From: Candidatus Palauibacter sp.
GTDB lineage: Bacteria > Gemmatimonadota > Gemmatimonadetes > Palauibacterales > Palauibacteraceae
Direction: 5' to 3' (one strand)
DNA: 64,000 nt
NCBI RefSeq assembly: GCF_965221685.1
Contig: NZ_OZ244907.1
Below the pieces are notes generated by a model. The model had not been told where the DNA came from. It saw only the letters and a program-made list of their open reading frames with translations, and searched no databases. The position numbers were made by a program, and so were the translations under genes. Positions 27,889-32,233 of the stretch are shown in pieces. How positions within the stretch are numbered: position 1 is the stretch's first letter; each line of letters begins with the position of its first letter.

Positions 27889-28260
27889 ACTTGGGCGCAG
27901 TTGCGCGGTCCGTCCGGCGGGCCTGCGTGGCACCCGAGGCAGCGTGAGACCCGGTCTCGGTGAGGCCGCGCGTCACGTGAAGCTACTTCGCAAGGTGTGG
28001 CGGATCGACGAGGGGGCCGGCACGACCTTTTTCATGGACGGCAAGGAGGTGTACTATTGATCACGCACGGTGACCGCTGAGCCCCAGCCGAGACGGACTC
28101 AGCGGCGCTGAAGGATCATGATGTCGGATGAGGGAGGGGGTGGTGATGGTCCGCTTTCGTTCAACTCGCCGTAGCTCCGAATCCGGGGCGACGCCTTTTG
28201 TATTCCCACGAGGGCCCTCGCTCGACCGATTCTCAACAGCCTATGAGATGATACCTACAT

Positions 28261-29787
28261 ATGTCTGACATCCCAGCAAACTCCATCCCGGCCCTGAAGG
28301 TCAACCAATGGCTATCCCACTGGGATGACATCAGTTGGAAACCGGAAGAACACCGATCAAAGCCGCCGCGGTCGTTCTATCAGTTCAACGTTTCCGCTCA
28401 CGTGCTGCGTCGCCTTAGTGGAGTCTATAGGAGAACCACCGACCGAGATCGCGGGACTTCCGATCTGGGCATTCAGCGCCGCCACGAGCCCAAACGATCC
28501 GAGGAAATCGCTCGGTTCGTCAAGTACGGATATCCCTGGTCGGTTCTCAGTGCGACTAAGCGTCAACAACCTGACTTCGCAGACTTGCGCCAACCCGGTT
28601 GGCTTCCGACAGCAATCCTCATCAACATTCTCACCGCTGACGATGAACGCCAGGGTAATGGCGTCGCAAAGGGCGATCTCGTTGAGATCCGCGAAGATGG
28701 CGATATGCACCACGTCGTTCTCCCCCACGGCCTAGATTCAGGGGACTGGGAATACAAGACCGTACCACCAATTGAAGTAATCGACGGACAGCACCGGCTT
28801 TGGGCGTTCGATGACACCGCTCTCAATGGCAGTTTTGAGCTACCTGTTGTTGCGTTCTTTGGCTTAGATCGGAGTTGGCAGGCATACCTGTTCTACACAA
28901 TCAACATAAAGCCAAAGAAGATAAATCCGAGTCTGGCTTTCGACCTCTACCCTTTGCTGCGTACTGCGACTTGGCTCGAGAAACTTGAAGGCCCCAAGGT
29001 GTACCGCGAATCGCGAGCCCAGGAGATTGTAGACATCCTATGGGCTCATCCGGAGAGCCCGTGGTATCGTCGCATCAACATGCTCGGCGAACCCGGGCAC
29101 CGGGGCTTGATGGTGACGCAGGCGGGCTGGATTAGATCTCTCCTGGCGTCCTTTGTGAAGAGGTGGGAAGCGCGCACTGCTCCGGGCGGCCTTTTCGGCA
29201 GTCCAATGGGCAGCCATGAGACGGTTCTCCCGTGGACTCTGGAGCAGCAGGCGGCCTTCCTGATCTTCCTCGGACAGCGGTTGCGTGCGACCGTCGAGGA
29301 GTCCGACGATGAATGGATGTCCGCTCTACGGCAGCGATGGTCTGATCCCGAGGACGAAGGTGATCCAGCGTTCGTTGGGCGCCACAACCTGCTAAATCAA
29401 GACCAGGGCTTACGAGCATTCCTCCAAGTGTCCAACGACGTTTGCTACGTGGCCCCAGAGCACTGGCTACAAGAAGAAGAACTTGTTTCTGTTCCGTCAG
29501 ATCCCGATGAGTCCGATGGCGTGGCCGCCGCCCTGCGACACTTTGAGAAGAACGAGCTGCTTTGCACACACATCGACGAGTTGAGTCAAACTCTCGCGGA
29601 GTTCGACTGGCGATCTTCGGATGCGTCTGACTTGACTCCAGATGAGCATCTGCGGAAGTCCGCTTTTCGGGGCAGCGGTGGATATCGCATGCTTCGCGAG
29701 GAGCTGCTTCGTCACCTCTCCGATGACGAGTCGACTGTCGGGTTGGCTGCCGAGGAGGTTCTCAGAATGCTCGGTGTGGCCGAATGA
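28261..29787 (+). CDS. DGQHR-domain protein (DndB/DpdB-like, ParB/Srx-fold)
   Basis: Exact DGQHR motif in PIEVIDGQHRLWAFDD. 508 aa. Lower-GC gene preceded by an AT-rich intergenic region. First gene of a 3-gene operon (ATGA overlap with the next gene at 29784-29787). Confidence 0.8.
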   Translation: MSDIPANSIPALKVNQWLSHWDDISWKPEEHRSKPPRSFYQFNVSAHVLRRLSGVYRRTTDRDRGTSDLGIQRRHEPKRSEEIARFVKYGYPWSVLSATKRQQPDFADLRQPGWLPTAILINILTADDERQGNGVAKGDLVEIREDGDMHHVVLPHGLDSGDWEYKTVPPIEVIDGQHRLWAFDDTALNGSFELPVVAFFGLDRSWQAYLFYTINIKPKKINPSLAFDLYPLLRTATWLEKLEGPKVYRESRAQEIVDILWAHPESPWYRRINMLGEPGHRGLMVTQAGWIRSLLASFVKRWEARTAPGGLFGSPMGSHETVLPWTLEQQAAFLIFLGQRLRATVEESDDEWMSALRQRWSDPEDEGDPAFVGRHNLLNQDQGLRAFLQVSNDVCYVAPEHWLQEEELVSVPSDPDESDGVAAALRHFEKNELLCTHIDELSQTLAEFDWRSSDASDLTPDEHLRKSAFRGSGGYRMLREELLRHLSDDESTVGLAAEEVLRMLGVAE

Positions 29788-31085
29788 CACCAGTAAATGT
29801 CGGCTCGGCGGATCGACGTTTGGTGCGGGCCGCGATGGAGCGTCTGACGCCGCACCTTGCGGCCGGACAGGGGTTGCCTCCGGGCCACCGCTACGCCGAT
29901 GGCAGGCCCGGGCGCCAGCCGGTCAATGACTCGGCGCTGGCCGAATACATCGCTCTGTCCGCAGTTCAGCATGCGTTCGACGGGTGGGCGTACTGGGGAC
30001 GAGCGGTTGCCGCGGAGATCAGCGGAGATTCCAACGTCGCGAGCCATCTGGGGTACTACGCAGAGCTTCGCGCCGCCAAGGCGATCCTAGCTTCCGAGGG
30101 CATTGGGTTGTTCGCCAACCAAGTGGCTGTCGTGCACGGCAATGGTCGGTGCGTCCTGGAAACAGGGCAAGGCAGTTCTCATAAGGTGCTGTGGGAAGCT
30201 CTCGAGGAATGGAGCAAAGGCAAGGCCCAGGGCATTGTCTTTCGTCTCTTGGGGCCGTTTGGCCACTCGATTTCGGATTGGCTCCAGCACTTTTCCAGAT
30301 CTTCCAACGCGGTCGCTGAAGACTGGTTGCGTGCGTGGGGTCTGGACTTGCAGGAGTTGGCGAAAGGCGAGAGCGGCCGACGCAACGTAGCCAGCTACGA
30401 GCCCAGCGGGTGTCCTCAAACCGAAAGGGAGCAATCGGAGAAGGCGCTCGACCACATCACGAGGTTGTGGCGATCATGCCAGCCGACGGGCACGGGGGTT
30501 AATCTCGCCTTGGACAGGCTGGTCCTTCGGGCTACGCTGGAATCCGTTTTTCAAGCTGGCGATGCTGAGGAGCGATCTGCCAGCGAAGCGCGTGACCAGT
30601 ACTGCGCGAAGGTGCGCCATACGGTGGAGTCTCTCTCCTTGGGACAATCGATCGGCCAGGCAATCCTCAGATTCCTTGATCCGCAGGAGATTCCGGAAGG
30701 CATGGACATCTTCGAGATCGCTAAACGGACGAGCGACGCGCGTACCAGGACGCATGTGACCGAGGTGCTTTCTCGAGCGGTGCTGCTTCTCCGGCTGGCT
30801 ACCGCATGTGCGCATGACTTGCTGGGCGAACTCGGCACCGACCCAAGGGCCGCCACCCAGCACTGGTGGGAGAGTCGACACGTTCGACGTGGCCTTTGGC
30901 CCGTTGGCCATACCTTGGATTCGTTCTCAGACCTCTGGGACGAGGCGGACGAAGCGCTTGACACTTTGGCAAACCAGCCCAATGGAGGGTCTACGTTCGG
31001 ACTTCGGAGCTCGGATTGCGCCAGTTCGGTAGCGACACTTGCGACGGCCGAGCGGATCTTTTTCTGGGGTAGCTTTGCAGCATGA
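29784..31085 (+). CDS. Hypothetical 433-aa protein with no recognisable domain, middle gene of the DGQHR-MTase operon
   Basis: Continuous ORF with coding-like composition. Translationally coupled at both ends (ATGA overlaps at 29784-29787 and 31082-31085). No motifs recognised by eye. Confidence 0.55.
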   Translation: MTPVNVGSADRRLVRAAMERLTPHLAAGQGLPPGHRYADGRPGRQPVNDSALAEYIALSAVQHAFDGWAYWGRAVAAEISGDSNVASHLGYYAELRAAKAILASEGIGLFANQVAVVHGNGRCVLETGQGSSHKVLWEALEEWSKGKAQGIVFRLLGPFGHSISDWLQHFSRSSNAVAEDWLRAWGLDLQELAKGESGRRNVASYEPSGCPQTEREQSEKALDHITRLWRSCQPTGTGVNLALDRLVLRATLESVFQAGDAEERSASEARDQYCAKVRHTVESLSLGQSIGQAILRFLDPQEIPEGMDIFEIAKRTSDARTRTHVTEVLSRAVLLLRLATACAHDLLGELGTDPRAATQHWWESRHVRRGLWPVGHTLDSFSDLWDEADEALDTLANQPNGGSTFGLRSSDCASSVATLATAERIFFWGSFAA

Positions 31086-32233
31086 CGCTACGGAGCATGA
31101 AGTACATGGGCTCCAAGCGAGTGATGCTTGCCAACGGCCTAGGTGACGTGTTGGCCGAGGAGTCGAAGTCGGCAGCTCGGTTTGTCGATCTCTTCTGTGG
31201 TACCGGAGTCGTATCGTGGTTCATGGCGACGAGGAGCGAACTCCCCGTACTGTCCTGCGATCTGCAGAGTTTTGCGACGACCATGGCGGCATCGGTTGTC
31301 AAACGTACGGACAATAGCGGACTGGATCAGGAGATCGATTCTTGGCTGCGTCGTGTCCGTGAAACCCGGGAGGAACGGCCTGGTTGGTCGGAGGCCGCGG
31401 AGCTGGATGGTTCCAAGGTGCCGATTGCCGTTTGGTGGAAGGAGGCCCGCGAGCTATGCGGTGAGGCGGGGTCCGAGGGATGTGGCCTAGTGTGGCGCAA
31501 CTACGGCGGTCATTACTTCAGCCCTACTCAAGCGGCATCCCTGGACGCAATGATGGAGACTTTGCCAGCCGAGGGGAGGGCAAGGGACGTTTGTTTGGCG
31601 GCGACCATAACGACCGCCAGCCAATGTGCGGCGGCGCCGGGCCACACAGCCCAACCCTTCAAGGCCACAACCACCGCTGGGCCCTACCTGCGTGAGGCGT
31701 GGTGCAGGGATCCCCTCTCCCGCGTTCGCGAAGCAGCGGAGATTCTAGTTTCCATGTGCGCGCTTCGGCGAGGAGACACGAAGACGGGCGACGCCAATGA
31801 GATCGCGCGCGAGGTCACGGAAGAGGACCTGGTCTTCGTCGATCCGCCGTACTCCGATGTTCAATACAGCCGGTTCTACCACGTCCTCGAAACGATCGCA
31901 CGTGGCGAGTGCGGCGTGGTGTCCGGTGTCGGAAGGTACCCTCCCTTCACCGAGAGGCCCGCCTCGGACTACAGTCGGGTCAAGGCTTCTGCCACGGCGA
32001 TGGCGAATCTTCTGGAGATTCTTGCCAGCACGGGTGCCGCAGTAGTGGTCACTTTCCCGGAGCAGCAGTGCAGCAACGGCCTCTCTGGGCTGCGCATCGA
32101 GGAAATGGCCAAGCAGCACTTCCAAGTGGTAAAGCGAACGGTTACGTCGAGGTTCAGCACACTGGGTGGCAACACCCGGAATCGGGACGCACGCAGCATC
32201 CGAAACGAACTGATTCTTGTGATGAGGACGTGA
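31082..32233 (+). CDS. Dam-like D12-class N6-adenine DNA methyltransferase (extended, 383 aa)
   Basis: N-terminal KYMGSKR (Dam motif I, Y-x-GSK) and VFVDPPYSDVQYSRFYH (motif IV DPPY). About 100 aa longer than E. coli Dam. Confidence 0.8.
   Translation: MTLRSMKYMGSKRVMLANGLGDVLAEESKSAARFVDLFCGTGVVSWFMATRSELPVLSCDLQSFATTMAASVVKRTDNSGLDQEIDSWLRRVRETREERPGWSEAAELDGSKVPIAVWWKEARELCGEAGSEGCGLVWRNYGGHYFSPTQAASLDAMMETLPAEGRARDVCLAATITTASQCAAAPGHTAQPFKATTTAGPYLREAWCRDPLSRVREAAEILVSMCALRRGDTKTGDANEIAREVTEEDLVFVDPPYSDVQYSRFYHVLETIARGECGVVSGVGRYPPFTERPASDYSRVKASATAMANLLEILASTGAAVVVTFPEQQCSNGLSGLRIEEMAKQHFQVVKRTVTSRFSTLGGNTRNRDARSIRNELILVMRT

What the first reader, a model, noticed from the sequence alone, without database searches (positions are those of the whole stretch)
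28261..32233. Candidate undescribed defence/modification system: DGQHR (DndB-like) protein, 433-aa unknown and extended Dam-like methyltransferase in a translationally coupled operon
Three genes are chained by ATGA start/stop overlaps at 29784-29787 and 31082-31085. Gene 1 carries an exact DGQHR motif (VIDGQHRLWAF), the ParB/Srx-fold domain of DndB and DpdB. Gene 3 is a D12-class N6-adenine methyltransferase (KYMGSKR, DPPY) about 100 aa longer than Dam. Gene 2 (433 aa) has no motif I can recognise. Known DGQHR systems pair DndB with DndACDE (phosphorothioation) or DpdB with DpdA/C (7-deazaguanine). A DGQHR protein, an unknown protein and an adenine methyltransferase do not match a named system as far as I know. 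The operon sits in a lower-GC island next to an MmeI-type restriction-modification gene and a tRNA array, the classic setting of a defence island. One hypothesis: a methylation-marked self/non-self system in which the DGQHR protein and the unknown protein form the sensor/effector.
Basis: partly seen in the sequence, partly recalled or inferred. Interest (0 to 1): 0.85.

Follow-up and report, generated by a model that had tools for sequence, protein, structure and literature searches.

The report
ParB-like, HEPN and methylase defence cassette
This is a real, widely spread but uncharacterised three-gene mobile cassette in which a ParB-like DGQHR protein and a previously unrecognised HEPN-fold protein always travel together with an interchangeable DNA-modification enzyme, so it is most likely a modification-linked anti-invader system, though a purely regulatory role is not excluded.

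Summary

The cassette is discrete, spanning 27978-32233. A Longimicrobiales MAG shares exactly this stretch at 82% nucleotide identity and has unrelated flanks. The MmeI-like gene, which carries an in-frame stop, and the tRNA array are only neighbours.

At least 155 species across many bacterial phyla and Methanoregula carry the gene 1-gene 2 pair. Of 77 usable loci, 69 have a DNA-modification gene beside the pair, and its type varies:
- long D12 methyltransferase: 49 loci
- short Dam-like methyltransferase: 14
- Dnd phosphorothioation genes: 4
- N4/N6 methyltransferase: 1
- type-I-like methyltransferase plus S subunit: 1

Best reading (0.45): a restriction-modification-like system with a ParB-NTPase sensor and a HEPN effector. 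The closest characterised analogues are SspE, DndI and Menshen.

Main rival (0.25): a DndB-like module that controls modification.

The theme was foreshadowed computationally in 2013. I found no experimental description and no model of gene 2 in PADLOC. I rate it a new variant of a known kind, interest 0.6.

The parts
27978..28260 (+). Non-coding leader that travels with the cassette. It marks the left boundary of homology with the Longimicrobiales locus L001.
   Evidence: blastn of the window against L001 matches exactly 27978-32233 at 82.4% over 4262 nt, and the flanks are unrelated. No conserved reading frame, no sigma-70-like site and no Rfam match were found.
28261..29787 (+). Gene 1: a 508-aa DGQHR-domain protein. 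It has an N-terminal ParB/Srx-fold NTPase-like domain with the QR pair (28468-28482), DGQHR (28783-28797) and FxxxN (28891-28905). A conserved C-terminal helical region carries an invariant FRGSGGY (29665-29685).
29784..31085 (+). Gene 2: a 433-aa HEPN-fold protein of a family no curated model detected. The HEPN-like region is roughly residues 49-205 (29928-30398). It contains the invariant motif HLxYYAELR (30045-30071), H133, and R200-N-x-x-S-Y205 (30378-30398). A further helical C-terminal half follows.
31082..32233 (+). Gene 3: a 383-aa D12-class N6-adenine DNA methyltransferase. The order of motifs is FCGTG (31193-31207), then a long variable region, then DPPY (31841-31852). Possible alternative starts are M6 or M9.
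   Evidence: Pfam PF02086 scores 52.2 bits against a cut-off of 22. PADLOC MTase_II gives 3.7e-20. The Dam subfamily model TIGR00571 scores only 27.2 against 114.85. More than 3360 homologues of about 379 aa were found. All three sampled homologues have the gene 1 and gene 2 families upstream.

Best explanation
The cassette at 27978-32233 is a self-contained, horizontally mobile, modification-linked anti-invader system.

Shown:
- The invariant core is a co-evolving pair, a ParB/Srx-fold DGQHR protein (gene 1) and a HEPN-fold protein (gene 2).
- This pair is tightly packed with a DNA-modification enzyme. Here that enzyme is a long D12 m6A methyltransferase. Elsewhere it is a short Dam-like, a beta-class N4/N6 or a type-I-like methyltransferase, or DndCDE.

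Inferred:
- The methyltransferase marks host DNA.
- Gene 1 binds DNA and, through nucleotide binding or hydrolysis, distinguishes marked from unmarked DNA. The related ParB-like domains of SspE, DndI and GmrSD/BrxU work this way.
- Gene 2 is the effector, a HEPN RNase with a non-canonical active site of the AF0298 type. That type uses a histidine placed after the helix 2-helix 3 insert plus a conserved arginine, which here would be H133 and R200. Gene 2 would be released when gene 1 engages unmarked DNA, stopping the infection or the infected cell.
For: - **Pairing.** Gene 1 sits directly upstream of gene 2 in 79 of 80 loci from different species. Their NJ trees are congruent.
- **Gene packing.** The median gene 1-gene 2 gap is 2 nt, and 67 of 72 gaps are at most 30 nt. 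All 38 gaps between gene 2 and the long methyltransferase are at most 30 nt.
- **Link to modification.** 69 of 77 loci with enough sequence have a DNA-modification gene next to the pair. The types are 49 long D12, 14 short D12, 4 Dnd, 1 N6_N4_Mtase and 1 HSDR_N/N6_Mtase plus Methylase_S. The partner type changed repeatedly along the tree.
- **Gene 1 fold.** ParB/Srx, with all three DGQHR motifs.
- **Precedents.** ParB-like NTPase sensors coupled to nucleases and a modification module are experimentally established for SspE and DndI (PMC11662687). A ParB-DUF262 sensor with an RNase effector is proposed for Menshen (PMC12065111).
- **Mobility and context.** The cassette boundaries are sharp. It occurs on plasmids beside DarT/DarG-like and Tn7-like genes, and beside type I R-M, MmeI-like, HipA and IS genes.
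- **Decay without a methyltransferase.** Two loci without a methyltransferase have broken gene 1 and gene 2 (L071 and L074).
Against: - No experiment exists for any member.
- No DNase domain was recognised.
- The HEPN domain lacks a canonical Rx4-6H motif and could be non-catalytic.
- The two characterised DGQHR proteins act on the modification side. DndB is a negative regulator, and DpdB is an ATPase needed for base insertion.
- The same highly conserved gene 1 (44-55% identity) pairs with chemically different marks, m6A and phosphorothioate. That is awkward for a direct reader of the mark.
- Six loci have an apparently intact pair with no modification gene seen within 5-6 kb (L030, L031, L044, L051, L060, L078).
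- My placement of R200 and H133 in the fold rests on secondary-structure order. I had no atomic coordinates.
Confidence: 0.45

Rival explanations
1. DndB-like control module. Gene 1 and gene 2 are not restriction or effector components. They would be a split, enlarged counterpart of DndB that regulates or assists whichever DNA-modification enzyme lies in the same operon. This could be autoregulation of the operon promoter, or NTP-dependent gating of enzyme access to DNA. The cassette would then be a regulated modification module whose restriction partner, if any, lies elsewhere.
For: - Gene 1-gene 2 sits at the DndB position of complete Dnd clusters. In L053 the pair is followed by DndC, DndD and DndE (148 bits), with similar layouts in L024 and L032.
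- The characterised DGQHR proteins DndB and DpdB both work on the modification side (PMC4507180 abstract; PMC10853773; PMC12839542).
- Control at the level of the operon would explain why the pair tolerates five unrelated modification enzymes.
- No DNase domain was found.
Against: - No conserved operator-like motif was found upstream of gene 1 in 73 loci. This is weak evidence, because operators could co-evolve with the protein.
- A roughly 940-aa two-protein NTPase plus HEPN apparatus is heavy machinery for controlling a single methyltransferase.
- The HEPN fold with invariant His, Arg and Glu residues looks enzymatic.
- A regulated orphan methyltransferase gives no obvious reason for a three-gene unit to spread across phyla and into plasmids and defence islands.
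Confidence: 0.25
2. PrrC-like guard. The NTPase (gene 1) and the HEPN RNase (gene 2) would be held silent by association with the modification enzyme. They would fire when a phage factor, such as a DNA mimic or another anti-modification or anti-restriction protein, disables or titrates that enzyme. The outcome is abortive infection that does not depend on reading the DNA mark.
For: - PrrC is an NTPase plus HEPN protein silenced by the EcoprrI R-M enzyme. It is the textbook case of a HEPN domain embedded in R-M loci (PMC3710099).
- A guard needs no recognition of the chemical mark, which fits the interchangeable partners.
- Gene 2 evolves fastest of the three. Median identity to the window protein is 31.7% for gene 2, 48.6% for gene 1 and 46.5% for gene 3. 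That is expected of a component exposed to phage counter-measures.
Against: - The guard would need specific protein contacts with five unrelated enzymes.
- Phage inhibitors aimed at solitary methyltransferases are not a known common threat.
- No ABC-type NTPase or anticodon-nuclease signature is present.
- There is no direct evidence of any interaction.
Confidence: 0.15
3. Unconventional type II-like restriction-modification system. Gene 1, as a ParB/Srx-fold nickase or nuclease, with or without gene 2, would be a DNA endonuclease that cuts unmethylated DNA. The HEPN protein would serve as a DNA- or RNA-binding subunit rather than as an RNase.
For: - ParB/Srx proteins with DNA-nicking activity are known, and earlier comparative work calls such domains "ParB nucleases" in R-M contexts (PMC3710099; PMC12839542).
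- The operon layout resembles an R-M gene pair.
Against: - In the solved or characterised DUF262/DGQQR relatives (SspE, DndI, BrxU), the ParB-like domain is the NTPase sensor and a separate HNH domain cuts DNA.
- A sequence-specific endonuclease would not tolerate repeated swaps of methyltransferases that probably have different specificities.
Confidence: 0.1

Closest known systems
SspABCD-SspE and IscS-DndBCDE-DndI (phosphorothioate-sensing defence)
   Same: A DNA-modification module is coupled to a ParB-like (DUF262/DGQQR) NTPase. That NTPase reads the self mark and controls a nuclease (PMC11662687). The logic is the same as in my best explanation. In four related loci the gene 1-gene 2 pair sits inside Dnd clusters.
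DndB (DGQHR protein of Dnd phosphorothioation clusters)
   Same: Both have a DGQHR, ParB/Srx-fold N-terminal domain. In L024, L032 and L053 gene 1 occupies the DndB position, upstream of dndC, dndD and dndE. DndB-like proteins bind ATP and GTP (PMC12704722).
   Different: Gene 1 scores below the Pfam DndB gathering score (23.7 against 29.1), and only the N-terminal half aligns. It is about 150 aa longer. It always has a separate HEPN-fold partner. In the window it is linked to a methyltransferase, not to dndCDE.
MAE_28990 HEPN family operons (Anantharaman et al. 2013, Biol Direct 8:15)
   Same: [quoted passage not shown] This is the same three-part theme.
   Different: That family is reported to keep the Rx4-6H motif, and gene 2 has no canonical Rx4-6H. 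None of 47 gene 2 family members matches any Pfam HEPN model at E<=1. I could not obtain the MAE_28990 sequence for a direct comparison.
Menshen (NsnABC)
   Same: It combines a ParB-DUF262 protein with a helical DNA-binding C-terminal domain, proposed as the sensor, with an RNase effector. It is sometimes found next to solitary methylases (PMC12065111).
   Different: Menshen needs an ABC ATPase (NsnB), which is absent here. Its effector is an inPIN plus BECR-type RNase, not HEPN. No PADLOC NsnA, NsnB or NsnC model was hit. In Menshen the methyltransferase link is occasional, whereas here it is near-constant.
DpdB of the Dpd 7-deazaguanine system
   Same: It is also a DGQHR, ParB-like ATPase in a DNA-modification system. 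The weak PADLOC and NCBIfam hits of gene 1 are to DpdB.
   Different: The score is 22.7 bits against a cut-off of 300, and no dpdA or dpdC lies nearby. DpdB powers base insertion, and no comparable need is known for a methyltransferase.
PrrC-EcoprrI
   Same: An NTPase-regulated HEPN RNase is genetically embedded with a DNA-modification enzyme and acts as an abortive back-up (PMC3710099).
   Different: PrrC is a single ABC-NTPase-HEPN polypeptide inside a complete type I R-M locus. Here the NTPase-like part has a ParB fold and is a separate protein, and no restriction subunit is present.

Membership tests
DGQHR domain proteins (TIGR03187; ParB/Srx fold) | Score above the curated cut-off of the domain model | tested here: met
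   73.5 bits against a cut-off of 58.85.
DGQHR domain proteins (TIGR03187; ParB/Srx fold) | QR pair, DGQHR pentapeptide and FxxxN motif, as described in PMC4619093 | tested here: met
   Q72-R73, D175-G-Q-H-R179 and F211-Y-T-I-N215 are all invariant in 34 homologues.
DGQHR domain proteins (TIGR03187; ParB/Srx fold) | ParB/Srx fold of the N-terminal domain | tested here: met
DndB (PF14072; Dnd system regulator) | Full-length match above the Pfam gathering score | tested here: not met
   23.7 bits against 29.1, and only profile positions 11-159 of 338 align.
DndB (PF14072; Dnd system regulator) | Encoded with dndC, dndD and dndE | tested here: not met
   No dnd genes lie in the window. The feature is met only in related loci L024, L032 and L053, and loosely in L079.
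DpdB / Dpd system | Equivalog-level match to DpdB, with neighbouring dpdA and dpdC | tested here: not met
   NF041060 scores 22.7 bits against a cut-off of 300, and PADLOC DpdB gives 1.3e-5 over about 100 residues. No TGT-like or DUF328 genes are adjacent.
HEPN superfamily (gene 2) | Four-helix up-and-down bundle superposable on solved HEPN domains | tested here: met
HEPN superfamily (gene 2) | Rx4-6H catalytic motif | tested here: not met
   No invariant R is followed by H at +5 to +7. The nearest pattern is R200-N-V-A-S-Y205.
HEPN superfamily (gene 2) | Alternative active site of AF0298-type HEPN-T: a conserved basic residue plus a conserved His contributed by the helix 2-helix 3 insert (PMC3710099) | tested here: inconclusive
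   Invariant H133 directly follows the beta insert at 107-127, and R200 is invariant. I could not inspect spatial proximity, because no coordinates were available.
HEPN superfamily (gene 2) | Sequence match to a curated HEPN family, including the MAE_28990-type family | tested here: not met
   No family was hit for gene 2, and no HEPN family for any of 47 members at E<=1. A profile search of PDB sequences gave only noise. Caveat: I assume from memory that the Pfam copy holds the MAE_28990 model.
D12-class N6-adenine DNA methyltransferases (PF02086) | Match above the gathering score, with the AdoMet motif FxGxG and the catalytic DPPY | tested here: met
   52.2 bits against 22. FCGTG is at residues 38-42 and DPPY at 254-257.
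Dam subfamily (TIGR00571, GATC methylases) | Score above the subfamily cut-off | tested here: not met
   27.2 bits against 114.85, and only the first 60 residues or so align. The recognition sequence is unknown.
Classical type II restriction-modification system | A recognisable restriction endonuclease next to the methyltransferase | tested here: not met
Menshen (NsnABC) | NsnA-type ParB-DUF262 protein, NsnB ABC ATPase and NsnC effector | tested here: not met
   No PADLOC Nsn model was hit, and the cassette holds no ATPase gene.
SspE / DndI / GmrSD family | ParB-like DUF262 domain fused to a DUF1524 HNH nuclease | tested here: not met
BREX / DISARM / MADS | Signature genes (PglZ, BrxC; DrmA, DrmB; mad genes) in the locus | tested here: not met
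   Only weak methyltransferase-domain cross-hits (mad2, PglX, DrmMI) appear, for gene 3 and for the MmeI-like neighbour. No other signature gene lies in 20-42 kb.

The most novel reading that the evidence does not exclude
The gene 1-gene 2 pair may be a surveillance module that does not depend on the chemistry of the mark. A ParB-fold nucleotide switch and a non-canonical HEPN effector would monitor the act or completeness of DNA modification, whatever the mark (m6A from at least four unrelated methyltransferase types, or phosphorothioate). They would not read one specific mark. This would be a plug-in "restriction half" able to turn any DNA-modifying enzyme into a self/non-self system, with RNA rather than DNA as the target.
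Probability: 0.2. Interest if true: 0.85.

Novelty: new variant of a known kind. Interest (0 to 1): 0.6.

Why it matters
If the best explanation holds, this adds a widespread, compact system of about 4.3 kb to the set of modification-based immune systems. It is present in many bacterial phyla and in methanogenic archaea.

Its layout is unusual. It has a ParB-fold sensor, a stand-alone HEPN effector and no DNase. Its modification enzyme has been exchanged repeatedly between m6A methyltransferases and the Dnd phosphorothioation machinery.

That modularity bears directly on an open question about Dnd: what DndB-type ParB proteins really do, whether as regulator, NTPase gate or effector partner. 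It also identifies an overlooked partner gene that sits next to "dndB" in some Dnd clusters.

Practically, it defines a new HEPN family of about 1200 clusters at 50% identity that current Pfam, NCBIfam and PADLOC models miss. It also points to culturable hosts carrying the cassette for testing, namely Zymomonas mobilis CP4 plasmid pZZM405 and Rhizobium tumorigenes pRt932.

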